This document shows positions 19,803-41,662 of a stretch of 64,000 nt of DNA, piece after piece. This DNA comes from Amoebidium appalachense (lineage: Eukaryota; Protista; Ichthyosporea): positions 8,863,962 to 8,927,961 of the forward strand of contig CAVNZM010000007.1 in assembly GCA_963693365.1 (NCBI GenBank), in the 5' to 3' direction. A model generated the notes under the pieces. The model ran no database searches. It was not told where the DNA came from and saw only the letters and a list, made by a program, of their open reading frames with translations. Each line of letters opens with the position of its first letter. Position 1 is the stretch's first letter. A program made the position numbers and the translations under genes.

Positions 19803-20690
19803 TGTTATTTTGTATAATTCTACGGGACTATACTTATGTCTACGGCAAGCAGAGTGCACAGAGGTGTCATGTAGAAACACGACCAACACAATAATGAGAG
19901 GGCAATCGGAGTTGTTGACGATACATGAAAGATTTTGAAACAACAACTGACGTTTATTGATCTCTCTCGAGCCCTTTTGTACCGGGCCAAATATTCATCT
20001 TATCAAAAATACAGAAAAGGAACCAATCAGCTCTTCCGAATGATAGAGAACTACATTCCACCATAGCATACGCTATTCTACCTTCTGACCCAGCAGAAGT
20101 CTCAAAACACTACTTAAATAAATTAAGTAATACAGACAACTTGTCACTATCAATTCAAATATATATTTATACTTGTCTCTATAAAGAAACTCGTCTAAAT
20201 ACATATGTTTCCTAATAGATGACACTCTTTAGAGAGAAGATATCTTATCTCGAGACACATACCATACAGAAACAAAATGTCCAATCATAACACGTCTATG
20301 ATTAAACGTACTGAACAGGAATGCACAACACAATCTACGAGTGTACTTACTCGCGTCTATTGGTGAGCTATCACTGCTTGAACAAAAGCACAAAGACAAC
20401 GACTATAGCTAACCAATCACGCTACTATTCAGATAAACTGAGGAGAGCAAACAGAAATGGAATACAATAAGTTCTTATCAGGCAAATGAGCCAGGTGTGC
20501 CCAGATCTCAAGATATCTATGCACACAGGAACACGGGAGGGAGAGAGAGAGATACGGGGGGGGGGGGGGGGGGGGGGGGGAGGGAGAGAGAGAAAAGACC
20601 AAAAGCACAAAGAGAAAAGCAGACACGAATACAAACAAAGCTAAGACACATACATACTTCAAACTCTTGCTGTCTATTTCTATTTCAACA
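19803..20690 (-). repeat. Copia 3' LTR
   Basis: Matches 44164-45050 with roughly a dozen differences. Confidence 0.96.
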
Positions 20691-21107
20691 TCCCCACTCA
20701 AGGGGTTGAAGTTTGTGTTCTCGTGTCTGTTGATGTGACTGTAGATGGAACACACGGGGCCGTCACACAGAAGTCTCCCCCACTCGAGGATGCAAACCGA
20801 AAATCCTTGATGTGGGAAGAAGAAGACAAAACCGGGAAGAAGAGGAGGCACACGACGACGGTTGCCTCGAGGTCACACACTGAGATAATAAAGTAATAGG
20901 TTGTGAAAATAGCAGTTATGGTGGTGAAGATATATAAATTATGATGAAACGATTAATACCGTTATTAGGACCAGAAAGAATTAAATAAATAATTAAATAA
21001 TTAAATAAATAATTCCAAGAGATATAGTCCCCACTGACGAGTATGAGCAAAGGAAACATCTAATACTAAAGAGACGTAATCCCCACTGAAAATCGACGGA
21101 AATAAAG

Positions 21108-22984
21108 TCAGTCACGGAGGCTGAGGTGGGCACAGTGTGCCTCATGGGCCGGACCAGCCAGAGGCTTGGTGAAGATGTCGGCCAGGTTCTTCTTGGTGTC
21201 GACGTAGGTGACGGTGACGTCCCCACTGTTGATGTAATCTTTAGTGTTGAAGTACCGAACAGCAATGTGTTTAGTCCGGTGCTTGATGGTGTTGGAGTGT
21301 ACGAGGGCAATGGTTGACTGGTTGTCACAGTAGACGGGGGTTGGCTCGTGCATAGGGTAGCCCAGCTCCTTGAGGAGGTCACGGTGCCAGACGACATCCT
21401 GTACGGCAGAGTTGAGAGCCAGGAGCTCGGCCTCGGTGGTGGAGGTTGCCGTAATCGTCTGCAACTTGGAGTGGAAGGTGACGGGGGTACCCTGGATGAG
21501 GATGACGTAGCCGGAGGTAGACCGACGGGTGGTGGGGCAGCCAGCAAAGTCAGCATCTGAGTAGCACTCAACGATGGGTGCCTTGCTGGTGGGGGCCTGC
21601 TTGATGTAGTGAAGGCCGAGGTTGATGGTACCGATGAGGTAACGAACCACACGGAGGAGAAGTTCCCAGGCAGTTTTGGTGGGCTTGGAGCTGAACCGAC
21701 CGAGGTAGCCAATGGCATAGGAGATGTCTGGCCGGGAGCACCGAGCAACTCAGAGTAGACGGCCGAGCAGTTCACGGTAGGGAACGGTGGTTGGCAGGGA
21801 GGCAAGGGAGTCCTCGTTGATGATGACGGTACCGACGGGAATGGGGGTGGCTTTGGGCTTGGCGTCGGTGAGGTTGAAGTCGGTGATGATGTCCTTGATG
21901 TATGCAGCCTGCAGCAACTTGAGGGAGCCGGGAGTGTGAAGCAGCTGGGTGCCGAGGAAGATGTCCAGTAGATCAATCTTACACTCAGCAGACTGCATGA
22001 TGTGTTGGACGAGCTTGGTGACGAGGTCGGAGTGCCTGGTACAGGTGATGATTGCATCATCGACGTAGTTGCCAGAACGGATGATGTTACCGTTGGGAAA
22101 GATGAGCACGTACACACACGGGTCGGAACGGAGACGTTTGAGGCCGTGGGCTATCAGGATGGAGTCGAAGAACTGGTACCAAGCCAGGGAAGCCTGCTTG
22201 AGTCCGTAGAGAGCCTTCTTGAGTTTCCACACCTTGTGTTCGTTGCCGGGGAGGATGAAACCGGGAGGCTGCTCCATGTACAGAGTCTCGTCGAGGGGGC
22301 TGTTGAGGAAGGCAGTGCTGATGTCGAGTTGATGAATCTCATGGTCCTGCTGCACACCGAGAGCAAGCAGGGCACGGACGGATGATGACATGACAACTGG
22401 GGAAGAGTTGTCACCGTAGTCGACTCCATACACCTGGGTGAAGCCTTTGGCCACACCTCGACCCTTGATCTTGGTAGCCCCGGCAGAGTTGAGCACCTTC
22501 TCCGTCACAATCCACTTGAAACGAATGATGTTGGCATCAGGAGGGGGTTCAACCACGTCGAAGATGTCCTTGTCGATGAAGGCCTGGTACTCAGAAGTGA
22601 GTGCAGCAGCCACGGCATAACCCTGGGGGCCGTTGCACAGCTTCTGGATCGAACGGGGCAGCTGTGACACATCGAGGGTAGGCCGGGAGATGCTGATCAT
22701 AGCCGTGGCAGGCCTGGAGGACAGACGGGAAGAACGACGGAGGGCAGAACGGGGAGGCTCAGGAACCGGTGGGGTGACTGCCAGTGGGGCAGACACTGGG
22801 GGGTCGGAAAATGGAACCTGGAGGCCGGGAACGGGAGCTTGGAAGCCGGGGAGGGGCGCGGTGTTGAGGGGGGAGTCGGCTGGCACTGGGCTGGACGGGG
22901 CAGAATGGAAGTCTGGAGACTCAGGACGGACGCCGTGGGGGTGACGTTGCCAGGCACATGGGCAATGACGGCTGGTGCTGGCAA
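21108..22984 (-). pseudogene. Copia RT + RNase H (frameshifted)
   Basis: QLDISTAFLN, LKKALYGLKQA, YVDD, YSDADFA, STTEAEL, CDNQSTI, HRTKHI, LADIFTKPL. Confidence 0.96.
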
Positions 22985-23112
22985 GAGAGGCTGCTGGCCG
23001 GTGGGGGGAGGGGTATGTTGTAGATGGGGAAGTAGATGACGCGGAGTGGTAGTTTAATAATAATAATACTCGGGCTTGTATACCATGTATTTATAGTTAG
23101 GTAAATGTATAA

Positions 23113-23367
23113 ACCGTGTACAGGCAGTGTGAATAGAACCAGTGAGCTTACAAGGGTGCTCTGCCAACGTTAGTTACACCAAAATGAACGGTGACCTAAG
23201 GAGCGCATCACCACTCGTTCATTAGCTAAGCGTTGGTCTAGAATGTAAAAATACACACTAGCGGACTTAGTCCCTGCCTTAGGCGTCCCAAGTAGCTATA
23301 CGCAAACTGGTTCGAGCCGGTGTATGGCTATATGTTATAGTGGACACTGTGATCAATGGTACACGGT
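23113..23367 (+). ncRNA. Putative structured RNA of unknown family (multibranch fold, possible pseudoknot)
   Basis: Closing helix accgtgtac/gtacacggt and at least six internal helices, with about seven G-U pairs that form only on the + strand. Confidence 0.55.
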
Positions 23368-23865
23368 AATCGGTGAAGTGAGGTTTTCGATGGTCACACA
23401 AGCCTTATTGTATCCGAAAATCAATAGCGTAGGCTAATCAGCGAATCTGATAGGTCATAACTCAATAGCGGGAATACGTCAAGGGATCTTATATGTCTAA
23501 ATGTGATACATTCGGGTCATTACATTGGGTGAGGATAAAACCAACATTCTTGAATAACAGATATATTGTGAGGAGTTAATATTTAGTAAACTCATAGAAA
23601 CTCCGGAAATGAGAAAAGGTTGGAAAACTGAGTTTAAGAAGAAATGATGAAAGAATTACATATCTATCTATGGAAGTGGTGTCGGGTGTGTGTGCGCGGT
23701 GCTGGGTGTGTGCGCGCGAAGGGTTGAATTCGGTATGGTATTTGGGAATGTGGTCATGTTGTGGTGGATTGTGATCAAAGTGTAGTGAACGAGCGCGATC
23801 GGATATTCATGGAGAGGAAATTAGGGAGGGAGAGGGGGAGAGAGAGGGAGGGGGGGGGGGGGGGG

Positions 23866-23932
<67 letters not shown>

Positions 23933-24457
23933 TAGAAAAGGAAAGGAAATGAAAAGAAGAGGAAAAGGATATGTGTGTCTGCATATGTGTGTGTGTGTGT
24001 GTCTGTAGGTGGGGAGTGAGGTGTGTGCATGTATTTGTACGTGTGTTTGGGGGGGGGGGGGGGGGGGGGGGGGAGGCTACGTGTTTGTTGTGTGTTGGGG
24101 AAGAAAAGTTAGTGTTGATGTAATCGTGGTCACATGGAGAACCATAAGCAAGTACGAAATCTATGTCAAAGTATTTAGACTATCCAAAGAGAAATATGGG
24201 GAGAGAGAAAGAACAGTTAGTGGGAGAGGGTTGTTAGTTGATGTACCTGTCGGGTTGTGTATATGGATGTGTGACAGTGTATAACAGTGTGTGGGTGTGG
24301 GTGTGGGTGTGTATAGGTGTGTGTGCATGGGTGTGTGTGTGTGTGTTGGGGGGTGAATGTATGTTTGCATCAAGCAGTGTATTGGCGTGACGGGGTTTTG
24401 TTTATGGGGAGATGGGGAGGAGTGGGAAAAATGTAAAAAGGGGTAAAGCTGTGGAGG

Positions 24458-24613
24458 TTAGTGTATTAGTGAGTTAGTGTGAAGGGAGGGGGAGATCCCG
24501 TAGGGATTGATAGCACTCCTGGTAGGTGGGTGCGGGCATACGTGATTGGAGGGGTTTGAAGGCTGCCACTAGGATGGAGCGGGGGTAGTGCAAAGAGTGG
24601 AATTCGAGGGCAA
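24458..24613 (-). pseudogene. C-terminus of the Penelope-like RT (thumb)
   Basis: ALEFHSLHYPRSILVAAF...LIH* joins PQILLL in frame when the insert and one AA are removed. Confidence 0.85.
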
Positions 24614-24829
24614 CATCAGCAATCTCCCCCCCCCCTCGTAACCCCACCGAAGACCTCGTCGATGGGTTGGCACTGGTTTAGGACTGTCTAATGGATGGGT
24701 TTACGCTATATGAAGGAAAAACCTCCAAACCCGTCGACGACGTCGTAGACCGTCGGCGGAGTGGTTTACGACCCCTTTAGGGATGACCGACAGTATTGGG
24801 ACAGCCCAATGTATAACCCTAACCACACC

Positions 24830-26890
24830 TATGGATGGGTTTACAGCAACCACAACTTTCGTGGTACTCCTAACCCCATACATTGGATGTACACTGGATG
24901 TCGTGCACTCCTCCGGATTACGACATCATAAGATGGTCTTGCTGCACCCCCTCGGAAGACTGTCTTACGACGTCGGAAATAACTGTCGAATGGATGGGTT
25001 TACAATATCCATACGAATGTCCTCGACAACCATTAGTTGTCGTAAACCCCACCTGTGTACGACATCGTAACATGCTCTTACGACACCCCACGTGAGACTG
25101 TCGCTAGACGTCTGAAACCCCGCCGTATGGATTGGTTTACAGTATCCATTTGAAGGTCCACGATACACTGTGTATGTCGTAAACACCTGCACATTACGAC
25201 ATCGTAAGATGATATTATGGTGGTACTCCTAACCCCATACATTGGATGTACACTGGATGTCGTGCACACCTCCGGATTACGACATCATAAGATGGTCTTG
25301 CTGCACCCCTCGGAAGACAGTCCTACGACGTCGGAAATGACTGTCGTATGGATGGGTTTACAATATCCATATGAATGTCCTCGACAACCATTAGTTGTCG
25401 TAAACCCCACCTGAGTACGACATCGTAACATGCTCTTACGACACCCCACGTGAGACTGTCAATAGACGTCTGAAACCCCGCCGGATGGATTGGTTTACAG
25501 TATCCATATGAAGGTCCACGATACACTGTGTATGTCGTAAAGACCTGCACATTACGACATCGTAAGATGATATTATGGTGGTACTCCTAACCCCATACAT
25601 TGGATGTACACTGGATGTCGTGCACACCTCCGGATTACGACATCATAAGATGGTCTTGCTGCACCCCCTCGAAAGACTGTCTTACGACGTCGGAAATAAC
25701 TGTCGAATGGATGGGTTTGCAATATCCATATGAATGTCCTCGACAACCATTAGTTGTCGTAAACCCCACCTGAGTACGACATCGTAACATGCTCTTACGA
25801 CACCCCACGTGAGACTGTCAATAGACGTCTGAAACCCCGCCGGATGGATTGGTTTACAGTATCCATTTGAAGGTCCACGATACACTGTGTATGTCGTAAA
25901 CACCTGCACATTACGACATCGTAAGATGATATTATGGTGGTACTCCTAACCCCATACATTGGATGTACACTGTATGTCGTGCACACCTCCGGATTACGAC
26001 ATCATAAAATGGTCTTGCTGCACCCCCTCGGAAGACTGTCTTAAGACATCGGAATCAACTGTCGAATGGATGGGTTTACAATATCCATATGAGTGTCCTC
26101 GACAACCATTAGTTGTCGTAAACCCCCCCAGTATACGACATCGTAACATGCTCTTACAACACCCAACGTGAGACTGTCAATAGACGTCTGAAACCCCCCG
26201 GATGGATTGGTTTACAGTATCCATATGAAGGTCCACGATACACTTTGTATGTCGTAAACACCTGCACATTACGACATCGTAAGATGATATTACTATGGTG
26301 GTACTCCCAACCCCATACATTGGATGTACACTGGATGTCGTGCACACCTCCGGATTACGACATCATAAGATGGTCTTGCTGCACCCCCTCGGAAGACTGT
26401 CTTAAGACATCGGAAACAACTGTCGAATGGATGGGTTTACAATATCCATATGAGTGTCCTCGACAACCATTAGTTGTCGTAAACCCCCCCAGTATATATA
26501 GTATACGACATCGTAACATGCTCTTGCGACACCCAACGTGAGACTGTCAATAGACGTCTGAAACCCCGCCGGATGGATTGGTTTACAGTATCCATTTGAA
26601 GGTCCACGATACATGGTGTATGTCGTAAACACCTGCAAATTACGACATCGTAAGATGATATTATGGTGGTACTCCTAACCCCATACATTGGATGTACACT
26701 GTATGTCGTGCACACCTCCGGATTACGACATCATAAGATGGTCTTGCTGCACCCCCTCGGAAGACTGTCTTAAGACATCGGAAACAACTGTCGAATGGAT
26801 GGGTTTACAATATCCATATGAGTGTCCTCGACAACCATTAGTTGTCGTAAAGACGTCTGAAAACCCCGCCTGATGGATGGGTTTACCGTA
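24830..26890. repeat. ~359-bp subterminal tandem array, ~5.6 copies, with internal ~120-bp sub-repeats
   Basis: gtggtactcc(t/c)aaccccatac recurs near 24861, 25220, 25578, 25937, 26298 and 26666. Confidence 0.93.
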
Positions 26891-27466
26891 TCGATAGGAA
26901 GGTCATGGCAGGCCATGTTGAAATCATATAAATTAGCACTGGTAGTAAAAAACCAAGCTGTGTACATTTTAATTGAGCATCTGGAGGGGCTGCTGTATAG
27001 CTATATGATACCGGGCCACTATCATTAGGCAGGTATGTGTAATATAGATGTTAATAATTTTCTTGTAAAATTGTAAATAATAACTGGTGGCACGGCCTTC
27101 TGGATACATATAACAATGGATGTTTTATGGGGGTTTCGTGGGAATGCTGGCATACTTGAGAGAGAATACATAAGAGAACGAATAGGATGCTGATTCGGAG
27201 GGGGTACAAGAACTAGCAGAGTTTGTGGGTGCCTGGAACGGCAGGGGATTATAGTAGTGGGATAATTATATTGCGGAAAGCTGAACAGTGTAGCGTATAG
27301 ACGGCGGTGAACTTCTTGAACATGCCGGTATGAAGTCCATATGCGTGTACATGTATTAAAAGTAAATCAAGAGCGGTGCCAAAAGAACTTATTTAATAAA
27401 CAAAAAAAACAAAACTGAAGATAATCTGATAGAAAACACCTGACATTTACAAACCATGCACTCAAT

Positions 27467-29158
27467 TCAAGAGTTACGACCCATGTGCACGTATTTGTTA
27501 ACGAGGAACTCCTTCCTCCCCCCTACAGGGACCTTCACCGGGATGCAGTGGAAAATCCCCAATATAGACTCGACGTCAATAACGTCGTACCTCGGTCTTC
27601 GCTGCGCATTCGCACCAACCATCTCCCATGTCAGTCGGGGACAACGTGTGTGTTCGTCCAGATGTCTGCGCTCTGTGTAGTATCGAACGAAGGCACGATT
27701 CAGAAGCTTGTCCCCATGCTCTGAAGTGCAGGTGAAGAGAAGCACCACCTTTGCGTAGAAATGCACCTCATCGCCGTCCTCGTCTTCCCCCGCACCAATA
27801 ATGACGTCATCGTACCTATCCCGAGCACACAAACCCAAACCAAATATATATATATATAAATTCTCCATGTTTCAAACCCCCCCCCGGCCCATTACGCCTC
27901 CCCAATGTAAACCGGGTACTAATTTATTGCCCAGGGCCTCCCAAAGTTTGGTTGTGCTCCCATCAATCCCCTGCACGTTATTAACTGTTGCCAACCCCCA
28001 ACCCCCCCTTTTCCCTATGTATTATAGCGCATTTTGCCTAATATGGACGTACAACGGTTAATAACTTTCCCCACAGAAATGGGGAGACAGTCCGACCGGT
28101 TTTGTTAGACCCCCCACACAGAGACACTGCCTAATGCAAATTTTGGTTGTGCTCCCATCAATCCCCTGCACGTTATTAATCGTTGAATCCCCCCTTTTCC
28201 CCACGTATTATAGCGCATTTTGCCTAATATGGACGTACAACGGTTAATAACTTTCCCCACAGAAATGGGGAGACAGTCCGACCGGTTTTGTTAGCCCCCC
28301 ACACAGAGACACTGCCCTAAAATGCAAAGTTTGGTTGTGCTCCCATCAAACCCCTGCACGTTATTAACTGTTGAACCCCCCCTTTTCCCCACGTATTATA
28401 GCGCATTTTGCCTAATATGGACGTGCAACGGTTAATAACTTTCCCCACAGAAATAGGGGGACAATCCGACCGGTTTTGTTACATCACCCACACAGAGACA
28501 ATGCCTAATGGAAAGTTTGGTTGGGCCCCCATCCATCCCCTGCACGTTATTAACCGTGCAAATGTATCCAGCTTGTAGTATCCACCTTTGAAGGTGGTTC
28601 ACATGTCTACGGTGTAATAAAGATGTCCAAACATAGTCCATAAGACGCCTTATGTATATCCATGGGCCATTCCCCAAGACTGTAACAATACCATCCATAT
28701 TACTGTCGTAAAACGATATATCGTACGGTACAAACGGTCGTAAGACGATACATATTATCGTCGACATGTGGACTACGACATACAAACATGCTCGCAGGAT
28801 ATCGTAGATTTCACCATAATTTGGAGTACTAGTACTCACCTGCAAAATGAATGCATGCAGAGTTCTTGTTGGTCATATGATACGGCATCTTGCAGTAGTA
28901 TTTGTGAGCACGCTCCCAGCTCTCAGCTGACTCCACCGGGCCAAAGAGGCGATAGTCGTCAGAATAATGCACACCAGCATGGAATTTCGATGTTTTGAGT
29001 TCGTTCTTGGTGGAGTCCTTGAAGCACTCGTACGCAGCTTTGCCGAACCTGCGTTTTTTGTTGGTGATATTACTTTACAATATAATGCACTAGAGCGGCA
29101 CGGAGTCCATTACCAAATGGCGAAAGTTCTGCCATCGTTTCGTGTAGGATCTATACAC
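27467..29158 (-). pseudogene. Plavaka-type transposase, C-terminal exons (about 29158-28840 and 27820-27467)
   Basis: KFHAGVHYSDDYRLFGPVESAESWERAHKYYCKMPYHMTNK and RYDDV...YAKVVLLF...VIDVESILGIFHCIP match remembered Plavaka motifs. Stops are present and the N-terminal exons were not found. Confidence 0.8.
27940..28560. repeat. ~188-bp tandem repeat, ~3.3 copies, in the transposase intron
   Basis: tttggttg(t/g)gc(t/c)cccatc recurs near 27946, 28142, 28330 and 28516. Confidence 0.9.
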
Positions 29159-29219
29159 CTAGACACGTGCAGGGGGGGGGGGGGGGGTCGTAGTGGGGAA
29201 GGAGGGAAGACAGGGGGGG

Positions 29220-29265
<46 letters not shown>

Positions 29266-29409
29266 CGGCAGACACGTATGTTCTGTAACGCTCCTTCATC
29301 TCGTTGAGTGAGTCCTTTTTTATAATGTATTTCCGTTTATATATTTACACATAATCGCCACATGCATTTACCGGTGCGCCATGATAAACACATGGCCGGC
29401 TTATCATTG

Positions 29410-29445
<36 letters not shown>

Positions 29446-29571
29446 CACACACAGCATTCGATACCGTCCAATCTTGCTCTTCCCAAGGCATCCACATGCT
29501 CGCACACAATGCAGAAACATGCACTCACACACACGCACGCACACTGGCACACCGGGACACACACACACACC

Positions 29572-29617
<46 letters not shown>

Positions 29618-29820
29618 ACACACACACAAACACACAACACACACACACACACATACAGAGAGACACACACACATATGCACACACACGGTGCATTTCCTCC
29701 CCTCCCATTCCCTCTCCACAGAGCACACACACACACACACGTGCACACATGCACACACATGGTGCATCCCCCCCCCCCCCCCCTTCCCTCTCAACCGAGC
29801 ACATATACACATACATACAT

Positions 29821-29853
<33 letters not shown>

Positions 29854-30594
29854 ATGCACACATGCACACATGCACGGACACGAATCCCCCCTTCCCCTTC
29901 CCTCTCCACCGAGCACATGCACACATGCACAGACATGCACACACACGCACACACCACACACGACGCACACAGACATGCACACACACACACAAACACACAA
30001 CACACACACACACATACACACAGACACACACACACACACACACACACATACATGCACACACACGGTGCATTTCCCCCCTCCCCTTCCCTCTCCACAGAGC
30101 ACACACACTACACACGTGCACACACGCACACACACGGTGCATCCCCCCTCTCCCCCCCCTGCCCTTTCAACTGAGCACATACACACACACAGACATGCAC
30201 ACACACACAACATACACAGACATCCACACATCAGACACAGACACGCATACACACACACACACAGGCACACACACACACATGCACATATGCACACACAGAC
30301 ACACACACATGCACATGCACACTCACATATGCACACACACACACACACGCAAACACACACACACACACACACATACAGATATGCACACACACACACTGTC
30401 TCTCTCTCTTTTCTCCCTCCCTCCCCACCCCTCCCCTCCCCCCCTCCCCCCCTCCCTCCCTCCCTCCCAACCATCCCTCCCTCCCTCCCTCCGTCCCTCC
30501 CTCCGTCCCTCCCTCCCCCCTCCCTCCCTCCCTCCCAACCATCCCTCCCTCCCCTCCCCCCGTCCCTCCCTTCCCTCCGTCCCTCCCTCCCTCC

Positions 30595-30651
<57 letters not shown>

Positions 30652-30667
30652 ATGCACATGCACATGC

Positions 30668-31078
30668 ACCCCTTGTAGCATAGAACCCCCTTTGTAGCAT
30701 AGAATATGTACATATGTTACCTAGACATTATTGGTTTTTCAATAACTACCCACAGAATAGCCTCTAGCACGAGAAATTTACCACACAGTTTATGGGGGGG
30801 ATGGGGAATGTGCCCCTGGAGTACGAGGGTCACACGAAAAAAACACAACGTTGTAGCTCGAATAGAACCCCCCTTGTAGCATAGTATATGTACATGCGTT
30901 GCTTACACATTATTGGTTTTTTCAATAACTACCCACAGAACAGCTTCTAGCACGAGAAAGTTACCACACAGTTTATGGGGGGGATGGGGAATGTGCCCCT
31001 GGAGTGCGAGGGTCACACGAAAAAAAACACAACGTTGTAGCTCGTATAGAACCCCCCTTGTAGCATAGTATATGTACA
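30668..31078. repeat. 182-bp satellite units (continue at 36498-36670), reverse complement of the 57092-59290 array
   Basis: ccccttgtagcatag...cattattggtttttcaataactacccacagaa. Confidence 0.9.
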
Positions 31079-31745
31079 TCTATGAAAACTACTCCGGGAC
31101 GTGTGTTGCCTCTAGGGGGACATCCCCTTGGACGAAAGTGAACCATTGCAGCCACGGCAGGCCCCCAGTCATCAATTTATTGATCCGTGAGGTCCTTGTG
31201 CCCAAAAAACGGGGGAAGTCTTCGCCCCGTGAAAAAAACAGCACGTATGTGGGGATCAATGGGGGTTGAGTGTAGGGTGTAGGTGGGTGGGTGAAAAAGA
31301 AAATATAGCTGTAAAGCTGTAGGTGCTAAACACAGAAGATGTGTTGTTGCCTGCTGATCTGCTAAAAACTGTCGTGCTTATATACCTACGGCTACCGAAC
31401 TGAGCCAATCAAAACCGATCTAGTGTTATGTGAAATCTTATCCTGAGCCAATCAGACTCGGTCTAGTGATCTGTGGAATCTGATGTTTTGATCGGCTAAT
31501 AGGTGCCCGTATGCGGGCAGCCGAACGCGAACTGCTAAAACATGAAACAAAGCCTGTTGATATCGGACACCCATCCTACGTGTTTACCCAGAAAAATATT
31601 TATGTCAATAATTTCCACAAATAAAACCTCTATGAAAACTACTCCGGGACGTGTGTTGCCTCTAGGGGGACATCCCCTTGGACGAAAGTGAACCTGCAAT
31701 GGTTGTAAACCACGGCACGAGAGCAGCATGCTTGCTCCAAAGGTT

Positions 31746-32777
31746 TCACTTAAGAATAGAGGCGAATACACGTGTGGTAGTGGCAGCAATGGAGGCCGGA
31801 CGAAGTCGTGTATAGATCAGGAAACAGTCGGAGGACCACCTGCCGAGTTGTTTGATCCGGGAGTCGTCGACCCCGGCCTCAGCCAGTGCTGTGGCCCCCC
31901 CGATGCGGAGGCTGTGTCCGGCAAACCGGGAGGGTGAGAGGCCTGCCCGGGAGAGGAGGGCACGGAAGTCGGCAGAGAAAGCACTCTTGGTGTAGGGGAT
32001 GCCACCGAGACTGAAGAGGGGGTCGTCGGGTTGACCGGACGTTGTATGCAGGAACTGCCGGAGGAGATGGGCTGGGGAGAAATGGGTGAGGGGCAGGGCA
32101 GCTAGAGTGACGTTGACACCTCGGGCCTGTACATCCGTCTTAGAGGTTGGCAGGTGGAGGGTGGCATGGGACAAAGTACCGGTGGGGGTGTAGGTGAAGG
32201 TCACGTCTTTCCGTTTAACGTGACGGGACGGGTTGAAAGAAGTCAGGGTCTTGGAGGTAAATTCCCCTGAACGGAGGAGACCACAGAAACCGACGATGAG
32301 GGCTGTCCATAGCCGGAGATTGGCCGAGGAGGCCTTTGTGGGGCACTGGCCATGAAGTAGGCTGAGGTGGGAGGGCAGGAGGGGTTCCCTGGTTGATGAG
32401 CGGGGTCGGATGTTGTGAGAAAGCTGCCATCTGCCCACCCCCCGTAGGAACCAGGCCAGAGACTTGTCGTGGGGGTAGGGAGCAGGGAGGCCCATGTCGA
32501 GGTGGAGCCTGGTGATGGCCGAATTGTAGCCGGTTAAGGAAGAGGCCTGTACCCCTCGTTGGGCACACCAGGCGAGAAAAAGTTGCACGGTGTGTGGGGA
32601 GGCCGGGAGGGAGGACCCGGAGGGGGATTGCAGCCGAGATGCCACACAGAAATCGATGAACACTTTCTGCACCCGGGAGTAAAAGGCCCGAGAGTCGAGG
32701 TTGAGACTCAGGGCCTGGCATTCCTGCAGGGTAGTGGTGGCTCGAAGCAGCTCGGCCGGAGCAAAGTGGGGGGCCAA
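31746..32777 (-). CDS. Tyrosine recombinase of the Ngaro element
   Basis: GLLRSGE, SKTD, GHSLRIGGAT, LGRWSS..FLIY (R-K-H-R-W-Y). Confidence 0.95.
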   Translation of the reverse strand: MAPHFAPAELLRATTTLQECQALSLNLDSRAFYSRVQKVFIDFCVASRLQSPSGSSLPASPHTVQLFLAWCAQRGVQASSLTGYNSAITRLHLDMGLPAPYPHDKSLAWFLRGVGRWQLSHNIRPRSSTREPLLPSHLSLLHGQCPTKASSANLRLWTALIVGFCGLLRSGEFTSKTLTSFNPSRHVKRKDVTFTYTPTGTLSHATLHLPTSKTDVQARGVNVTLAALPLTHFSPAHLLRQFLHTTSGQPDDPLFSLGGIPYTKSAFSADFRALLSRAGLSPSRFAGHSLRIGGATALAEAGVDDSRIKQLGRWSSDCFLIYTRLRPASIAATTTRVFASILK

Positions 32778-32828
32778 TCTGCCAGCGTTGCTCCGGAACG
32801 GGAGATCTGGGGGGGGGGGGGGGGGGGG

Positions 32829-34400
32829 TTAGCCCAAGGGAAGGGATAGGAACTCGTGGACCCAGGAGGGGAAGGGGCAGGGCTCCGGTTGCAGGGAAGG
32901 TCGGAGTCGTCGGGCCCGGGGAAGTTGGTTACGAGAAATGGCATCGGCCAGATGGTTGAGGGGTCCTGGTAGGTAGGATGCCTGTAACGTAAATTGGTAT
33001 TGCATTTCCATGCGGGTGATGAACCGAATAAGTTTGGCCATCACGGGGTGGGGGGAAGACCGGGAGTGTAGGTCAGACACAGCACCCGTGTTGTCGCATA
33101 AAATACGGACATGGTGGGTGGACCAGGAGGGGGCCCAGAGGGCCACGGCGGCTGCGATGGCCAGGAGTTCAATGACGGAAGAACCGAGTTTACCCTCATG
33201 AGCATAGAGGGCTTGGGTGGAGGGGGACCAGGGCATGAAGAACCATTGGTCGAGCCAGTGGCCTCCTAGACCCACCGATCCGGCAGCATCGGTGGCCAGG
33301 GTGGTGTATGTGGGGGGTGTGATGAGGTGCACCCCATTCCATGATGTGAGGAACTGGTGCCATTCGGCTATGTCGGCCCGGGCGGCAGCAGTCAGTCGTA
33401 TGTGGTGGTGGCCGGCAAGGTGTGGGTGGGTCCGGAGAAGGGCCCATAGGCGCTGGGAGAAGGCCCTCCCGGGGGGAACCAGCTGGGCACACCAGGTGAG
33501 TTTGCCGAGGAGGGACTGGAGGTCCCGAATGGTGATGGTGGGCTTTGGGTGGGAAGTGAGGTCGAGTAGGTCCGAGAGCTTGGACGCCGGGATTCGTGCC
33601 TCCATGGTGATGGAGTCGAATTCGATACCGATGAAGACGACACGGGTAGCCGGGCCCTGCATCTTGTCTTCGGAGATGGCAATGTGCAGCTCTCGGCAGA
33701 GTTGCAGGAAGGTGGATAGGTGACGTTGGCACTGCTCTTGTGTGGGGGCGACTATAATCCAGTCGTCTACGTAGTGGCGGATGAGGGTAATACCGTGCTG
33801 GTGTGCCAGCCACTGTAGGGTGGCCGCGATCCGTTCCCAGATGGCTGGGCTAGATTTCAGGCCGAAGGGCAGTCTGGTTTCAACGTAAAAATGCCCCAAC
33901 CATTTGAATGCCATTAAGTGATGGTCTTCTGGTCGGATGGGCATGTGCCGGAAGGCAGCCTGTACATCTGCCACGGCCATGTAGCAGCCGGGGCCTGCGT
34001 CGAGAATGAGCTGGGTGACGTCCCGGGCGCGAATGTACTGAAGTTCGTCGGGGTAGGTGATGCTGTCATTGACACTGCTACCCCGGGGCCAGGAGAGGTG
34101 GTGGATTCGACGGTACTTGGGGGGGTTCCCTTTCTTGGTAACGGCGCCGATGGGGGAGGAACGGTGGACCGGAAATTCGTCAAAGAATTGGGCCGGGGAG
34201 AGGGGGCCGCGCAGGTGGCCGAGGGCGACTTCTTTGGCAATATCCGCCGTGATAGCGGAAGCTGCCTCCGGGGTGGTGGGTAGGTTGGGGCCCACCCGAG
34301 AGGTGGAGGGCCCGCGATAGCCGATGTCGACACCGAATTCGACATCGTGGAGGAGTTGTGCGGCGAATGATTGGTCTGGGTAGGAGGCCAGCAGTTCCCG
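32829..34400 (-). CDS. RT/RNase H of the Ngaro element (true start uncertain)
   Basis: RRIHHLSWP, DVQAAFR, LPFGLKSSP, YVDDW, TDAAG, IELLAI, CDN, NHLADAISR. Confidence 0.93.
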   Translation of the reverse strand, partial: RELLASYPDQSFAAQLLHDVEFGVDIGYRGPSTSRVGPNLPTTPEAASAITADIAKEVALGHLRGPLSPAQFFDEFPVHRSSPIGAVTKKGNPPKYRRIHHLSWPRGSSVNDSITYPDELQYIRARDVTQLILDAGPGCYMAVADVQAAFRHMPIRPEDHHLMAFKWLGHFYVETRLPFGLKSSPAIWERIAATLQWLAHQHGITLIRHYVDDWIIVAPTQEQCQRHLSTFLQLCRELHIAISEDKMQGPATRVVFIGIEFDSITMEARIPASKLSDLLDLTSHPKPTITIRDLQSLLGKLTWCAQLVPPGRAFSQRLWALLRTHPHLAGHHHIRLTAAARADIAEWHQFLTSWNGVHLITPPTYTTLATDAAGSVGLGGHWLDQWFFMPWSPSTQALYAHEGKLGSSVIELLAIAAAVALWAPSWSTHHVRILCDNTGAVSDLHSRSSPHPVMAKLIRFITRMEMQYQFTLQASYLPGPLNHLADAISRNQLPRARRLRPSLQPEPCPFPSWVHEFLSLPLG

Positions 34401-34511
34401 GAGGCGGGAGGTGTCAATGCGGTGCTGGGGCAGCGGGCGGGCCTCCGGGTCTGAGCCTCGGGGGAAGGGGTGGTTAGCAAGGGTGGGGCACCCTCGGGGA
34501 GATCCCGGCAG

Positions 34512-34564
<53 letters not shown>

Positions 34565-34958
34565 CAGGGCCCCGGGGGGGTTAGGGTAGGGCAGCTGGGC
34601 CCGAGTGAAGGTTGGCAGGGAGGGCAGCGGGGCCCTGTGCAGGGGAATGTGCCCGAGCACGCGGGGGTGTGGGCGGACACAGAGGTAGAAGAAGGGGGGG
34701 GGAGGGAGTGCTAGGTGAGTGTAAGGGGGGGGGAGGCTCGTGGGATGGGGGGGGGGGAGTAAAATTATGTGCAGTGGCCAGAATAAACGTCTTTGTGTAG
34801 GGACATTTATTCTTGACGCGCGCGGGCGCCGTAGTTTGGCCTGCGAAATTTTGTACTCAGCCCTATGGGCCCGTTCTCCCGAGCTCCGTTTCCCTGTACT
34901 CGTGTGTCCTAGCTCCTAACCCCTATGTTCTAGCTGTGTGTGTGGGTGTGCGCGTAGA

Positions 34959-36131
34959 CTAGGCATTGTGTTTGCAGTCTTTGCGGGGGTGTGTGCCAGA
35001 GCAGAGCGGGCACACGTGGGAGAAGGGGCAGGGCTGCTTAGCGCAGGACCGACCGTTAATGTGGAAATTCCTGCAGTGGGTCGCGGGTAGATCCACGGGT
35101 CGGGCCGGTTTTGCCGGGCCGGGGTGCGGGCCAGGGCGGTTAGGGGTTTGACCCCCGCCGGGCTTGTGGGGCGGCTTAAAGCCGTCAAGACCACAGCCGG
35201 GCTTGGGGTACATGGGGCAGGCCGCGCTGGGGTGGTCAGGGAAGCCACAGCGCTGACATGCGTCCGGGATGAGCAGAGTGGGTGGCAAGAGGAGATCCTG
35301 GTGGAGTTGGGCGAGCAGGTTGGGACACTCGATCGGAGCCCGACCCTGCTGGTGGGCAACGGTTCGGGCGTATACGTCATAGTTGTGGATCTGGGCCCAC
35401 GGGTATCGGGTGCTGAGGCGAGTGATGTGCTGAGTCCAAAGTACGTCTTTGTCCGTGGGGAGGCCGAGGTGGTGCTTGGCGGCCATGTAATGGGTCCAAG
35501 CCTGGATCCAAATGACGAGTGAACGCAGGGGAACGGGTTTGTCTTGGCGAAAAGTCTCGATGCTGCCGTCTTTGGCCATGCGCAGATGCTGACCTTTCTT
35601 GGATGGGGCCAGGAGGGCGGCGGGGGGTGAACTTATACAGGTCGACGAAACGATTGGCGCGCAAATCTGCCAGCACATCCGCGGGGGGAAGCGGGGAGTG
35701 TGCCCGGCTGAATGTCGCCAGTGTTCTCACCTGTGATGGGGGGCGCGGGCAGGGCAGGTAGGTCTAGGTCAGGGCCGAGATGCAGCCCCGGGGAAACCTC
35801 CCCGGGTGCGGAGGGCGCGGCGGGGGGCGCGGGAGGGTCGCGGTTGGTGAGAGCAGCCAGGACGCCAGCCATCTGGGTGCTGATGGCGGTAAGGGCGGCA
35901 AGGACGGCGTCTTGAGAAGTCATCTGCGGGGACGGCGGGGCCTGAGGGGGGGACTTCAGGAGGGGAGGGGAGACTAGCCGGCGGGTCCGGGTCCGAGGTG
36001 GTCTGGGCCGCTGGAGGCGCGTCAGTGTCCGCGGGAGCGTTGGTCAGCCTGTGGCGGAGGTCGCTGCGGGTCAGGCGCTTGGGTGCCGCGGCAGGGGCGG
36101 TGGCTGAGGCCTGGCGCTTTTTCGGCGGCAT
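34959..36131 (-). pseudogene. Ngaro gag-like ORF1 with C-terminal Cys/His fingers (frameshifted)
   Basis: WIQAW, YDVYAR, CQRCGFPDH, CRNFH..C..C.FSHVCPLCSGTH; spread over several frames. Confidence 0.8.
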
Positions 36132-37906
36132 GCTGACCGGCGTACGGAAAGATAGGGAGAGTGAAAAGAAAATATAGCTGTAAAGCTGTAGGTGCTAAAC
36201 ACAGAAGATGTGTTGTTGCCTGCTGATCTGCTAAAAACTGTCGTGCTTATATACCTACGGCTACCGAACTGAGCCAATCAAAACCGATCTAGTGTTATGT
36301 GAAATCTTATCCTGAGCCAATCAGACTCGGTCTAGTGATCTGTGGAATCTGATGTTTTGATCGGCTAATAGGTGCCCGTATGCGGGCAGCCGAACGCGAA
36401 CTGCTAAAACATGAAACAAAGCCTGTTGATATCGGACACCCATCCTACGTGTTTACCCAGAAAAATATTTATGTCAATAATTTCCACAAATAAAACCTAT
36501 GTTACTTGCACATTATTGGTTTTTTCAATAACTACCCACAGAACAGCTTCTGGCACGAGAAATTTACCACAAAGTTTATGGGGGGGATGGTGAGTGTGCC
36601 TCTGGAGTACGAGGGTCACCCGAAAAAAACACAACATTGTAGCCCGGATTGAAACCCCCTTTGTACCATATACATCATATATCAGGCAGCATGTGTTACT
36701 TTCGCGTTATTGGTTTCCTGGCACGAGATATTCAGCACACAGTTGGGGTTGTGGGGGCAGTGTACACCTACAATATCAGGGGTACCGCGTGGCAAAAACA
36801 CCCCCCCAGGGGGGGGGGGGGGGGGTCACGCGTGCGATGGTGCACTAGTTATTACGTCAACTAGGCAGGGTATAGCATCAACGTTATTATATGTGCTGCT
36901 GAGTTTCTTTGGTTGTACACCCGTCACCAGTCAATTTATTGGTGTTGGCGCCCACCTATGACACCACCTCGGAAGACTGGGGTCACGTGGAGGACACGTA
37001 ACTATAGTCTGATAGTTGTGACTAAGGGCACCGCTAAGGGCACCAAGCTGATGCACGCGCGCGCGCGAGCCGAAATCTATTTTTATCTTTTCCCTAATCA
37101 GGCGCGGCGGTTACTAAACCGAACTATAGCAAATAGCAAATAGTGATTGGCTAAACCCAATCCGGTTTGCAATTTTTTGTCCGTTTAAGCCTGTACGCAC
37201 GTTGTTTGCTCCATTTCTTTTCCCCCTTCCCGCAGGTCCGCAGTTCCGCAGGTCCCTTCCCGCAGGTCGCCTGGTCGCAGTTCCCTTCCCGCAGGTCGCT
37301 GGTCACAGGTCCCCTCCGCAGGTCGCGCTTTCGACCATGCTGCATGCTGAAGCATCTTCGCCTAACGGCTGAAAGGCCGTTTGAAGGTTAGTTTTGTGTT
37401 GCCTGCTTTTGTGCATATGGCGTTTGTCTGTCTGGTCTGTGTCCGTGCCTGTGATTATATCTGTGTCTGTGTCTGTGTCTGTGTGCGTGTGTGTTTATGT
37501 GTGTGTGTGTGCGTGCGTGTGCGTGTGTTCTGCTGGCTGCAGATGCACGTTGCCTTTTCACGTTCATGAACCAGCGACTGTGGGCACTACTTTTCCTGTT
37601 AGCACTATAGCTATCATCCCCTCCACCAGTCGTTCAAGCTATTTTCTGCTTCTCTAGACTTCATAAGTTTGTGCTTTTGTCTTTCAGCACAACGTACGCG
37701 TGTTTCACATGTTAGCATTTAGTGTTATTCATTCATTCTAACCCCCCCCCCCCCCCCCCCAAACACACACACACACTCACTCACTCACTTCCCCACCCAC
37801 ACATACAAAAAAACACACACACCAAAAGCCCCTCCCATCCCCCCCTCCCCCCCCTCCCCCCCCCCTTCCAAAAAACTGTCAAATGCCTCCATGCCCACCA
37901 ACACAG

Positions 37907-38332
37907 ATGTTCCAGGTTGCCCCTGTCAATGCCGCCGACCCCGACAAGTTGGCAGACCAGGTTGGGTGCCGCAAGAAGACGTGGGAGGGGTGGTTGGTGG
38001 AGGTTCAAGTTGAGTGCAACAACCATCCCTGTGGCCACATGTACAGCGTCGATCCGGTGAGGGGCAACCCATGGGGCAACTCCGCCCTTCACCGCATCAT
38101 GTGCATGTCCCCCATCAACGGCTCCTACATCAAGAACCGCCTCAGCAGCTTCAAGACACTAAACGTTTGTGCCCATTCCCCCCTCCCTCCCCCCCCCCCC
38201 CCCCCCACACACACACACCACACCCCAATCAAAGACGAAATCTTCTCATGCTGCTTTTTTTAACATGCTTATTCATGTTTAATGTTGTTGTTCTTCCTTA
38301 TTGGTTCATTCTTAATGCACTGTGACCCCCCC

Positions 38333-38365
<33 letters not shown>

Positions 38366-38816
38366 ACTCCCACTCCCTCCCTCCCACCTCCCCCTGTTGT
38401 CCCACGTACGAATCACCAACACATAACCACACAAGACATCAAATCCTTATCACTCAGAGAAACGGTACATGCATGGTTATCCAGTATCCATTCAGCTTCC
38501 CACTTCCTCAAGTCATTTCAGATTTTTCATTGTCGAATTCGGTTTTATTTGCTGCTAATGGAGAATACCCCCTTTCCTCATCACCACATACACACATGCT
38601 TACGTGTACGTACACGCAACACACACACCCACACCCACACAGGAGTTTCAAAAGGCGTTGCCCGAGCTCTTCAGCTTCATGCTCCACACATTTGAGTGCG
38701 GACTGCGGGATCCAATGGCCCACAAGTCTGCCACTCAGATTTCGTGGTCAGCTGTGAAGTATGGAGCTGACATGCCTGACTACGAGGGTGGTGCTCGGCC
38801 ATCAGAGATCAGCAAG
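37907..38816 (+). CDS. Two phase-0 exons (37907-38164, 38643-38816) of an unidentified protein inside CMC element #1
   Basis: AG/GT-bounded, 258 and 174 nt, stop-free, GC3-rich codons. Confidence 0.6.
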
Positions 38817-40360
38817 GTAAACAACTACCCCCCCCCCCCCCCCTTGCGTCCTCCCTGGGGATGGGCTCTGCTTATGACGCATACTGTGCACATGGCTGAT
38901 GTTGCGTGCTTGAATGTTTGCCTTTGCATGTGTCCTGCACCATGCTTCTCATCGTGTATGCGTATTTCGTACCGTATTCTGCATTCAAACCCCCCCCCCC
39001 CCCCCCCCCCCCATCATTGTGTTTTAGCTCCCGTCCGAAAGACAACGTATGGATATCGAAATGATGATATTGATAAGTCGTATGTATGGGTTACGTGTCA
39101 TCGTAGTGTTTTAGGATATCTCCTAAGCATGGGCAAGTATCATCCTATCATGTCATCTTTAGGTTTGGTATGGTAACATTGTGATAGCATTTTTCCCAGG
39201 TACATACATGCTCAGGCTAGCCAGAAAAGTTAAAAACACTCACACAATCTCCTTCTGTCCCAACCCAGTATGCAAAGACCTGGGAAAAGATCTGCAAGGT
39301 CCGGGAGAAGGCAGTCCTCAGCCTGTCAGCAGAAAGGCGATGTGGGTGGGAGGGTTGAGGATGATTAGAATGAGGAGGAATAGGGAAAGACCCCCCCCCC
39401 CCCCCCCCCCACGGAGGAAAAAAAAAAGAATTAATACTTAGTTTATGTCTCTTTTGGTGTAGTCCCGGCCTCTGCAGGGGGGAGATAGGGGGGAGATGTA
39501 GACTTCGTATTTTATTTGTGTGATGATGTTTGTTTTGTTTTGTTTGTTTGTTTGTTGGTTTGTTTAGTTTGTTCGGTGAAAGCTGGACTCCTGTGGAGTC
39601 TAACAGAGTGAAATTGTCTCTACTCCTGTGGAGTGAGACTTAGAAATTTTTAAACATGAACAACTTGTGCGGTCTCTGCTCCAGTGGAGCGAGACATAAA
39701 GGAACAACAGTCTTAATGGTATCTCGTGTACAAATTGTGAAAAAGTTAGAAAGGTAAGAAGGAAGGGGGGGGGGGGGGGGGGAGGGAGGGAGGGGAGGGA
39801 GGGAGGGGGGGGAGGGAGGGAGGGGGGGGGGGGAGGGGAGGGAGGGGGGGCACAACGGTGGTGGTTACTTTTCGTATTATGATATTACGACAGCTCGTAA
39901 TCGTATATTACGATATTCCGTAATATTGTATTTAGTTAGTCATGGTATACTCGTAACATATTATTTGGCTATGCATAGGATATCTTATGGATGGGCAAAG
40001 AGCTGTCGTAATGATGTATACACGACATGCTATGTATATACATACGAGTGGTGTACGGGCTCTTATGGAAATGTCTACGACGGTAATATGGGGGTCGTAA
40101 TGTACCCCAGGACCAGCCATATGTATATCATATGTATATGGTTGGTAATTATTCGTAAAATACATCGATATATATCATATGTCATGGGTTACGATGGTAT
40201 TAAGCCGCTCCTAAACATATACTCAAGATATCCAACGGGATGGGTTTGGATACTCGGATGGTGAAGATTACGATGGGTTTCCGACCCCTCGTAACGCTCT
40301 CGTATGTATGTTCTATGTATAGTCGTATGTATATACATAGGTTATACATTGGATATACAT

Positions 40361-40500
40361 AGGTTATCCTATGTATAGTGCAATGTATATACATTGGATA
40401 TCTTATGTACAGTGCAATGTATATACATTGGATATCCTATGCATAGTGCAATGTATATACATTGGATATCCTATGTATAGTGCAATGTATATACATCGGA
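40361..40500. repeat. 34-bp tandem repeat x4 in the right subterminal region of the CMC element
   Basis: atgtatagtgcaatgtatatacattggatatcct units. Confidence 0.85.
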
Positions 40501-40769
40501 TATACATAGGATATACATATGACATACGCTTTACGACATCCATAAACCCTATGGATGTCGTAAAGAGGGTTGATGGATGTCGTAAAGCGTATATCCAATG
40601 TATATACATAAGACGCTCCGTTAACCCCATGGAACTCTTTACACTATCGTAAAGAGGTCGTGCAACCACTCCATATGAACTCGCGGTGTGCTTTACGATG
40701 GGTGACAGGTTTACGCCATCGGAGATGGCATTACGAGGGGTATACGATCCCCGGTGGAGATTGCTGATG

Positions 40770-41655
40770 AAGAAGGAGAATTTGGGGGAGGAAGTAGGGG
40801 GGGTGAGAGGTATTGACCCAAACTCTAATGAATGCACCAGTGACGGTGGCCTGCTTGGAGGCATTAGATTGGTATGCATGCCAGGGTTTGAAACGAATGA
40901 TGGATTGTCCCAACCCTGCTAGAAGGGAAGTGCGGTTTTTGTTGTGGTAAGAGCAGTGTAACCCGTAGTTGGTGATGGTGATATCTACCTCGAGCTGTTT
41001 GTAGGTGTAGGAGTCTGGTTTTAATTCAAGGGTGAGAGCTGAGGGGTAGCATGAGTGAATGAATGCTCGTTTTAGGGGAGTCACCAGGGGGGTGTGGTGG
41101 GTCGAAGTGAGGGGGGTGACAGCTAGCCAATATGCGTCATCTACATATCTGGCTCCTGCGATCACAAGGCGCATGAAATATGCCTGTGTCCGTAGGGAGA
41201 GGATCATGAGTTGCTCACTGTGTGCACATACTACCAATGCATTAGGGGCACTAGTGGGAGAGCCCATAGGGATGCCCCCTGATTGTCGTATGACTTGGTC
41301 GGTGCCTACCAGAAACAGAGCGTGTTGTAGATCGAATTTCACTATCTCGTGGATTTGGCTGAGAGTGATGCGAACATAGCGCTTGTCGGGGTGTTTGCCA
41401 AATTTTCCGTCGGCGGAATCTCCAATCGAGACTGAGATAAAGGCATCATGTGGGTGTGTTTGGCTAGCCCGGTCGAGTAGCCATTCGACAGCCTTAAGTA
41501 CGTCAGCGTGTTCAAGGTTAGTGAACATGTTTTTGACATCAGCGGCTACATGAGTGCCTTTGATCAGTTCCCCCGGGAACTGTTTCTCGATGATGCGATT
41601 GGTGGTGTGTACAAAGTCTGTGATATCCTGTGTACGCCACACATAACAACCATAC
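40770..41655 (-). pseudogene. Penelope-like reverse transcriptase core
   Basis: ADVKNMFTNL, QSGGIPMGSPTSAP, ARYVDD, long insert between motifs A and B. Confidence 0.9.
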
Positions 41656-41662
41656 CTTTCTC

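What the first reader, a model, noticed from the sequence alone, without database searches (positions are those of the whole stretch)
23060..23530. Unrecognised multibranch structured RNA, antisense to a telomerase-related Penelope-like RT, at the distal end of the element
Seen: nested helices accgtgtac(23113-21)/gtacacggt(23359-67); aggcag(23122-27)/ctgcct(23274-79); agtgtg(23126-31)/cacact(23254-59); ccaacg-ttagtta(23164-76)/tagctaa-g-cgttgg(23223-36); aatgaacg-gtga(23183-94)/tcacc..cgttcatt(23208-23); tagctatacg(23293-302)/tgtatggcta(23321-30) capped by ctggt-tcga-gccgg; ttatagt(23335-41)/actgtga(23346-52). An outer helix ggcttgt..accat/atggt..acaagcc spans 23073-23404. The loop ccta(23195) can pair with tagg(23280) as a pseudoknot. 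About seven mismatches are G-U on + against one on -, pointing to a + strand RNA, opposite to the RT. Known: PLEs often carry hammerheads, whereas Naiad/Chlamys lack canonical ones; I see no CUGAnGA/GAAA core here. Inference: a new ribozyme, a priming/template RNA, or an RT-partner ncRNA.
Basis: partly seen in the sequence, partly recalled or inferred. Interest (0 to 1): 0.85.

Follow-up and report, generated by a model that had tools for sequence, protein, structure and literature searches.

The report
Knotted RNA tail of Penelope-like retrotransposon
The stretch lies at the tail end of a multi-copy Penelope-like jumping gene that has no hammerhead ribozyme there, and it is predicted to fold into a large knotted RNA shape that likely serves as the docking site for the element's own reverse transcriptase, rather than being a separate antisense RNA or a proven new ribozyme.

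Summary
23073-23404 lies 60 nt inside the 3' end (23013) of a 5'-truncated Chlamys-type Penelope-like element (PLE). Its RT is split by a 16-kb nested insertion, and other copies end in (GT)n. The quoted span folds like shuffles (z -1.4/-1.1), but the 334-nt domain beats them after correcting for chosen bounds (1 of 80). They fit an alternative scaffold of 86 pairs (85 Watson-Crick) that includes a 7-bp pseudoknot: 3 of 21 hit its pairs (core 1 of 9, P=0.003, model chosen afterwards). That scaffold is strand-neutral, so 'antisense' is unsupported. No Rfam family, hammerhead core, HDV-like fold or group II intron match was found, nor a relative in 26 distant PLE loci. Best reading: a cis-acting RT-binding domain in the element's own RNA, just upstream of an AC-rich start site (inferred by analogy). 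A new ribozyme is not excluded. No two-sided covariation or transcript was shown.

The parts
23013..23071 (-). 3'-terminal tail of the PLE: a short (TAT)n run, then a C/A-rich end abutting a C-run target
   Evidence: Contigs of runs X2, X3, X10, X13 and X15 leave the window at 23013 into (GT)n; copia contigs of X2 and X3 leave at 23014 into other sequence; sequence
23073..23404 (.). Folded domain closed by an outer helix (23073-79/23398-404 and 23082-86/23390-94); linkers 23087-112 and 23368-89 vary between copies
   Evidence: loose ends and indels
23113..23367 (.). Nested Watson-Crick scaffold: 23113-21/23359-67 (9 bp), 23125-30/23344-49 (6 bp), 23136-43/23306-13 (8 bp), hairpin 23315-29
   Evidence: Found by variant-blind folds (- strand RNA; DNA on both strands); variant test
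23144..23305 (.). Inner multiloop: hairpin 23144-61, long arm 23164-236, hairpins 23238-61 and 23263-73, 22-nt single-stranded 23284-305
   Evidence: core contigs differ from the window by 6 of 133 and 4 of 103 letters (plus 2 gaps), against 26 letters plus 6 gaps over 23305-23530 in a second subfamily
23195..23283 (.). Predicted 7-bp pseudoknot between the arm's apical loop (23195-201) and the junction strand (23277-83)
   Evidence: Longest complement of that loop; none of the 21 visible variants falls in it; not shown by covariation
23405..24473 (-). Rest of the 3' UTR: an unstructured AT-rich part to about 23620, then low-complexity sequence
24474..24611 (-). C-terminal (thumb) end and stop codon of the PLE ORF
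   Evidence: Best of 1527 reading-frame pieces of the window for a profile of the homologues' C-termini, E=0.0002; next best 0.0015; translation
24614..40769 (.). Nested DNA-transposon-like insertion that splits the PLE ORF: 14-bp terminal inverted repeats, AA duplicated at 24612-13 and 40770-71
   Evidence: Sequence
40772..41657 (-). 5'-truncated PLE RT core (P0001), N-terminal-endonuclease (Naiad/Chlamys) clade
   Evidence: 489 relatives at E<=0.001, best 31-38% identical; domain order of relatives
19803..23014 (-). Host copia element, 3' half (RT, RNase H, LTR 19803-20690); its 5' half is at about 41660-45050
   Evidence: RVT_2 E=1.8e-59; LTRs 98.5% identical over 888 bp

Best explanation
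The segment is the 3'-terminal domain of a multi-copy Chlamys-type Penelope-like retrotransposon, predicted to fold into a 330-nt nested, pseudoknotted RNA that likely acts in the element's own (sense) transcript as the binding site for its reverse transcriptase. Proposed working: the EN-RT protein binds the folded domain, the endonuclease nicks a (CA)n/(C)n target, and reverse transcription starts in the C/A-rich tail 60 nt downstream (23013). Synthesis often stops early, so most copies keep only this end. Shown: element identity, 3' boundary, target type, 5'-truncated copies, a conserved core with divergent linkers, and variants avoiding the scaffold. Inferred: that the fold forms, that the pseudoknot forms, the strand, and the RT-binding role. 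Odds by layer: element about 0.9, selected fold about 0.7, this role about 0.45.
For: PLE RT core plus thumb upstream on the same strand. YxDD-to-end distance is 172 aa against a median of 173 in relatives. Copies end at 23013 in (GT)n in 5 of 7 runs laid; short copies 23013-23085 (X10, X13) and 23013-23177 (X15) are flanked by GT-repeat sequence on both sides. This matches Chlamys targeting of (CA)n/(C)n (PMC8557442, sections 9, 15). The fold beats bound-corrected shuffles. 3 of 21 visible substitutions fall at paired sites, core 1 of 9 against 5.4 expected, P=0.003; two of the three become G-U on the sense strand. Loose ends of both outer-helix arms in other copies would close the internal loop into 8 contiguous pairs (read by eye; arms not linked on one contig). 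In the one PLE studied in vitro, the RNA must include a 172-nt region proposed as the protein-binding site, RT starts in an AC-rich site, and hammerhead cleavage is dispensable (PMC11167929). 5 of 12 related loci scanned also have 3'-flank windows with z<=-3.
Against: No two-sided compensatory change was seen on one molecule. The scaffold was preferred after the variants had been seen (two models compared). The distal region alone is not significant (2 of 12 against 4.4, P=0.11). Variant tables were cut: 17 substitution rows and 11 indel rows were not shown, and 4 of 6 differences of the main X13 core contig are unlisted. G-T exceeds A-C 6:0 on +; + has the lower energy for the scaffold (-98.7 against -94.6) and the better DNA z-score (-2.8 against -1.8), so the sense strand is not established. 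Copies ending at 23085 and 23177 lack the domain, which fits truncation but gives it no positive role. No relative was found in 26 distant PLE loci. The in vitro analogy comes from another PLE clade. The link between tail and RT rests on this one window copy.
Confidence: 0.45

Rival explanations
1. The domain is a new self-cleaving (or protein-assisted) ribozyme that does the job hammerheads are thought to do in other PLEs, cutting tandem transcripts to unit length.
For: It sits where PLEs carry hammerheads (PMC8557442). It has a sequence-conserved core, a predicted pseudoknot and a multiloop, and no known ribozyme core is present.
Against: At 250-330 nt it is far larger than small nucleolytic ribozymes (own knowledge). 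No shared motif in 26 related PLE loci. Hammerhead cleavage is dispensable for a PLE in vitro. No cleavage evidence of any kind.
Confidence: 0.12
2. The fold acts on the + strand, as an antisense RNA or as the first-strand cDNA (for example to set up second-strand synthesis or the inverted copies typical of PLEs).
For: G-T 6 against A-C 0. + strand z is better for 23112-23370 (-3.1 against -2.4) and as DNA. Variants at 23301 and 23337 give G-U on +.
Against: The G-U-rich hairpins are hit by variants at chance rate (11 of 21). Four variants give G-U on - only. Whole-domain RNA z is better on - (-3.4 against -2.2).
Confidence: 0.15
3. The domain serves the pseudo-LTR's expression role (internal promoter, 5' UTR, intron or translation signal for the next tandem copy), not RT binding.
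For: In Chlamys-3_cRei the transcription start and a 5'-UTR intron start lie in the pLTR, that is in 3'-end sequence (PMC8557442 section 10). A pLTR-like tandem is seen in related locus L021.
Against: No tandem copy in this window. A DNA promoter would not explain variants avoiding paired positions.
Confidence: 0.1
4. Ordinary 3' UTR of a young repeat: the helices are chance, and core identity reflects recent exchange between subfamilies.
For: Quoted span folds like shuffles. 120- and 200-nt windows reach only z -1.9 and -1.8. Few variants, no covariation, model picked afterwards.
Against: 1 of 80 and 0 of 40 shuffles after bound correction; stem avoidance P=0.003 in the core; linkers vary while helix strands are kept.
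Confidence: 0.18

Closest known systems
Chlamys / Naiad N-terminal-EN Penelope-like elements (Craig et al. 2021, PMC8557442; read: abstract, passages, sections 9, 10, 15, one supplement search)
   Same: C-terminal RT with long A-to-B' spacing, 5' truncation, insertion at (CA)n/(C)n, no canonical hammerhead.
   Different: The parts read describe no folded 3' domain or pseudoknot in hammerhead-less families. This RT is at most 38% identical to the best 150 relatives listed.
PAc Poseidon PLE RNA: 172-nt required region and AC-rich RT start site (Frangieh et al. 2024, PMC11167929; read: parts 1-2 of 4, the whole main text)
   Same: PLE RNA region near the element's end needed for activity, with an AC-rich terminus.
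   Different: PAc is C-terminal-EN, carries a hammerhead, its required region lies in the ORF start, and it targets AT-rich DNA. No sequence comparison was made.
Structured 3' UTRs bound by non-LTR RTs such as R2 (own knowledge, recalled)
   Same: Folded cis element next to the priming end.
   Different: Different RT class; not compared here.
Telomerase RNA template/pseudoknot core and DRT2/DRT10 ncRNAs (search listing and abstract starts only)
   Same: A pseudoknot and a single-stranded stretch enclosed by long-range helices, beside a TERT-related RT.
   Different: Here the domain is part of the element's own UTR; no repeat product or template use is seen.
Group IIC intron domain I
   Same: A 30-nt pattern drawn from 23128-23157 also occurs in Bacillales group II introns.
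   Different: An HMM of 46 such domains does not hit the segment; no domain V; Rfam group II models silent.

Membership tests
Chlamys/Naiad PLE | PLE-type RT at the C-terminus, no endonuclease after it | tested here: met
   ORF ends 172 aa after YxDD, median 173 in relatives
Chlamys/Naiad PLE | N-terminal GIY-YIG, CxC and DK motifs | not testable with these tools
   This copy is 5'-truncated. In relatives: Pfam GIY-YIG near the N-terminus in 9 of 25 scanned; CxC 47 and DK 32 of 51 by loose pattern
Chlamys/Naiad PLE | Insertion in fingers (long spacing from motif A to B') | tested here: inconclusive
   88 aa against a median of 87 in relatives; no canonical PLE measured as control
Chlamys PLE | Insertion at (CA)n/(C)n and frequent 5' truncation | tested here: met
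   Loose ends at 23013 and short flanked copies
Chlamys PLE | Pseudo-LTR / partial tandem | tested here: inconclusive
   No second copy in the window; no genome held
Hammerhead ribozyme | CUGAnGA and GAAA core joining three stems | tested here: not met
   No exact CUGAnGA on either strand of 23013-23700; one-mismatch hits listed have no fitting GAAA by eye; Rfam silent at E<=10
HDV-like ribozyme | Nested double pseudoknot P1-P4 with L3 and J4/2 cytosine | tested here: not met
   One loose descriptor hit on -, with a P1 mismatch; 5 of 40 shuffles give a hit too; Rfam silent
Group II intron | Domain I homology and domain V | tested here: not met
Group I intron / lariat-capping ribozyme | P3-P7 pseudoknot with G-binding site | tested here: not met
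   Rfam silent; by-eye check against recalled consensus found no consistent P7
Self-cleaving ribozyme of a new class | Site-specific self-cleavage | not testable with these tools
   Needs in vitro assay
Telomerase-RNA-like template/pseudoknot core | Internal template copied repeatedly by the RT | not testable with these tools
   Only the architecture is predicted; the 22-nt single strand carries 4 of the 9 core variants

The most novel reading that the evidence does not exclude
Hammerhead-less Chlamys PLEs of this lineage carry a new class of large pseudoknotted RNA, either a self-cleaving ribozyme that replaces the hammerhead or a telomerase-RNA-like core that docks the IFD-bearing RT. That would be a living model for how a TERT-like enzyme acquired a structured RNA partner.
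Probability: 0.13. Interest if true: 0.85.

Novelty: new variant of a known kind. Interest (0 to 1): 0.45.

Why it matters
What the RT of Naiad/Chlamys elements recognises, and what (if anything) replaces the hammerhead, is stated as open in PMC8557442 (section 15). These RTs share the insertion-in-fingers domain with telomerase. A bounded 330-nt domain with a concrete pairing model, a pseudoknot and a mapped 3' end makes both questions testable with one RNA. If it is only a lineage-specific UTR fold, it is a modest addition to PLE anatomy.

Tried and rejected
No whole genome is held, so genomic copies could not be aligned. Sequencing-run search: no RNA holder listed; X13 is only guessed to be RNA, so nothing is concluded about expression or strand. 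Contig depths (highest over about 23115-23335) and gaps in cover were not used as copy numbers or evidence. My first boundary (23057, with an in-frame copia rejoin) was wrong and was corrected. Word-indexed protein searches found no RT relatives; Pfam did not hit P0001; the full HMMER search did. Viral contigs: no RT relative and no match to two patterns. Plasmid and phage blastn: only hits of about 30 nt at E 2-6. Rfam: none at gathering; one SNORD58 hit at E=6.6, taken as chance; none in 17 of the 26 related loci at E<=0.5. nhmmer on 26 loci, local alignment on 20 3' flanks (1 of 40 strand tests above all 60 shuffles, L024, AT-rich) and a single-sequence covariance model on 36 sources found only the window itself; the model is weak by construction. 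Group IIC domain I lead, which came from recall, rejected. HDV-like hit rejected. No tRNA. Four 10-11-nt motifs in the Craig et al. supplement: one hit, inside AT-rich coding-like sequence, taken as chance. Earlier-findings look-ups by place and sequence were empty. Literature searches listed no paper on a folded 3' domain of hammerhead-less Chlamys; only listings were seen for most. bioRxiv supplements are closed and could bear on this.

Full report
Context. The window is repeat-rich eukaryotic DNA with nested mobile elements. A copia element on the - strand (LTRs 19803-20690 and 44164-45050, 98.5% identical; RVT_2) is interrupted between 23014 and about 41660. The interrupting sequence starts with a PLE RT core (40772-41657; P0001). 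That ORF is itself split by an insertion at 24614-40769 with 14-bp inverted ends and a duplicated AA. The ORF resumes at 24611 and stops at 24474-76; this piece is the best of 1527 reading-frame pieces for a profile of the relatives' C-termini (E=0.0002, next 0.0015).

Which PLE. HMMER over 1.84 billion representatives gave 489 relatives; the best are 31-38% identical, with the match at their C-termini. Of 25 scanned, 9 have an N-terminal GIY-YIG hit. Among 51 long relatives, 47 have CxC and 32 have DK by loose patterns; spacing from motif A to B' (88 aa) and from YxDD to the end (172 aa) equals their medians (87, 173). This is the Naiad/Chlamys layout of Craig et al. (PMC8557442; abstract, passages, sections 9, 10, 15 read). 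The N-terminal features cannot be checked in this truncated copy.

Boundaries and copies. Nineteen of 24 listed runs hold part of the stretch; 7 were laid (X2, X3, X10, X13; X15, X16, X18 and X13 again). Contigs in five runs leave the window at 23013 into (GT)n, and copia contigs leave at 23014 into other sequence, so the 3' end is 23013 and part of the copia was lost at insertion. Short copies (23013-23085, 23013-23177) lie between GT repeats. This matches Chlamys targeting of (CA)n/(C)n and 5' truncation. On the element's strand the last bases are C/A-rich. Several subfamilies exist. Core contigs differ from the window by 6 of 133 and 4 of 103 letters, while one subfamily differs by 26 letters and 6 gaps over 23305-23530, and contigs in three runs leave at 23113 into a different linker.

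Is the fold real? The quoted span is not unusual (z -1.4, -1.1), nor are 120-nt windows inside it. The 334-nt domain 23072-23405 is (z -2.2 and -3.4), and it stays so when shuffles get the same freedom of bounds and strand (1 of 80; 0 of 40 for 259 nt). The signal is long-range and moderate.

Which fold? This encloses the long arm and three hairpins. Of its 86 pairs, 85 are Watson-Crick. I tested both models on the 21 substitutions visible in 23072-23405 (25 were listed; 4 lie outside). Scaffold: 3 at paired sites, 1 of 9 (5.4 expected, P=0.003) and 2 of 12 (4.4 expected, P=0.11). Listed indels lie in loops, linkers or at helix edges (by eye). Loose ends of the two outer arms in other copies would turn the internal loop into 8 contiguous pairs and break one other pair, but they are not linked on one contig. 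Caveats: I compared two models after seeing the variants, the tables were cut, differences near contig ends are unlisted, and no two-sided change was seen.

Strand. A Watson-Crick scaffold cannot give the strand. For -: better whole-domain RNA z, and 2 of the 3 hit scaffold pairs become G-U on -. 'Antisense' is therefore unsupported. I prefer the sense strand mainly because that RNA must exist for retrotransposition (established knowledge).

Known families. Rfam gives nothing. There is no hammerhead core, no group II domain V and no HDV-like fold above chance. A recalled likeness to group IIC domain I did retrieve such introns by pattern, but a profile of 46 of them does not hit the segment. 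A metagenome scan gave 26 related PLE loci; none matches the segment. Five of the 12 scanned have 3'-flank windows at z<=-3, and none of 17 searched has an Rfam hit. Folded tails therefore seem common in this clade, and this particular fold is so far lineage-specific.

Mechanism. In the only PLE reconstituted in vitro, activity needs a 172-nt RNA region proposed as the protein-binding site, reverse transcription starts in an AC-rich site, and hammerhead cleavage is dispensable (PMC11167929, main text read). By analogy, this domain likely docks the EN-RT 60 nt upstream of the C/A-rich terminus, which is copied onto a nicked (CA)n target (0.45). Rivals: chance fold (0.18), + strand or cDNA structure (0.15), new ribozyme (0.12), pLTR expression element (0.10). 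For bioRxiv 10.64898/2026.07.22.740005 I saw three passages; they did not bear on the question. Four earlier AI notes on PLE tails in other genomes are leads only.

Verdict. A real, bounded, probably selected RNA domain with a predicted pseudoknot at the 3' end of a hammerhead-less Chlamys-type PLE; not shown to be antisense or catalytic. New variant of a known kind; interest 0.45.

Noticed in passing
proteins P0004, P0005, P0006, P0008, P0012, P0035, P0036, P0039: 8 of 25 scanned Chlamys-clade PLE proteins carry a Pfam PF12237 (PCIF1) domain between EN and RT, each with an NPx[F/Y] motif. This is likely an adenine methyltransferase domain (own knowledge of PCIF1/CAPAM). One search (Penelope + PCIF1 + retrotransposon) found no paper.
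   Followed up: partly
window 24614-40769: 16-kb insertion with 14-bp terminal inverted repeats and a 2-bp duplication. It holds a 359-bp tandem array (24861-26851), a 188-bp array (27942-28557) and an ORF piece at 27467-27871 that resembles CACTA/Plavaka-type transposase C-termini (recalled; no Pfam hit).
   Followed up: no
window 31076-36498: Tyrosine-recombinase retroelement on - (RVT_1 and phage integrase hits) with split direct repeats 31285-31629/36155-36498 and 31076-31144/31626-31694, a Ngaro-like layout (label recalled).
   Followed up: no
window 21750 and 23014: The copia has a stop codon between its RT and RNase H frames, and at least 214 nt of it are missing at the PLE junction relative to other copies.
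   Followed up: partly
L008, L010/L015, L002, L003 3' flanks: Strongly folded 200-nt windows (z -3.3 to -5.9) behind Chlamys-clade RTs, with no Rfam match; L010's 330-nt UTR also folds as one multibranch unit closed by a terminal helix.
   Followed up: partly
L021 (3' flank, 339-432): Head-to-tail repeat of the 3' UTR start, a pseudo-LTR-like tandem.
   Followed up: no
window 3171-10893, 47090-50657, 52839-54851, 59749-64000: Further mobile-element ORFs read by eye: gypsy-like gag/pol, a second gag/protease, a LINE-like RT and a THAP/P-like transposase (labels recalled, not scanned). Exons of a short-chain dehydrogenase-like host gene lie at about 16200-19300.
   Followed up: no
window 30673-31079, 36495-36776, 57091-59291: A 183-bp repeat unit is shared between three sites, with a long array at 57091-59291.
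   Followed up: no
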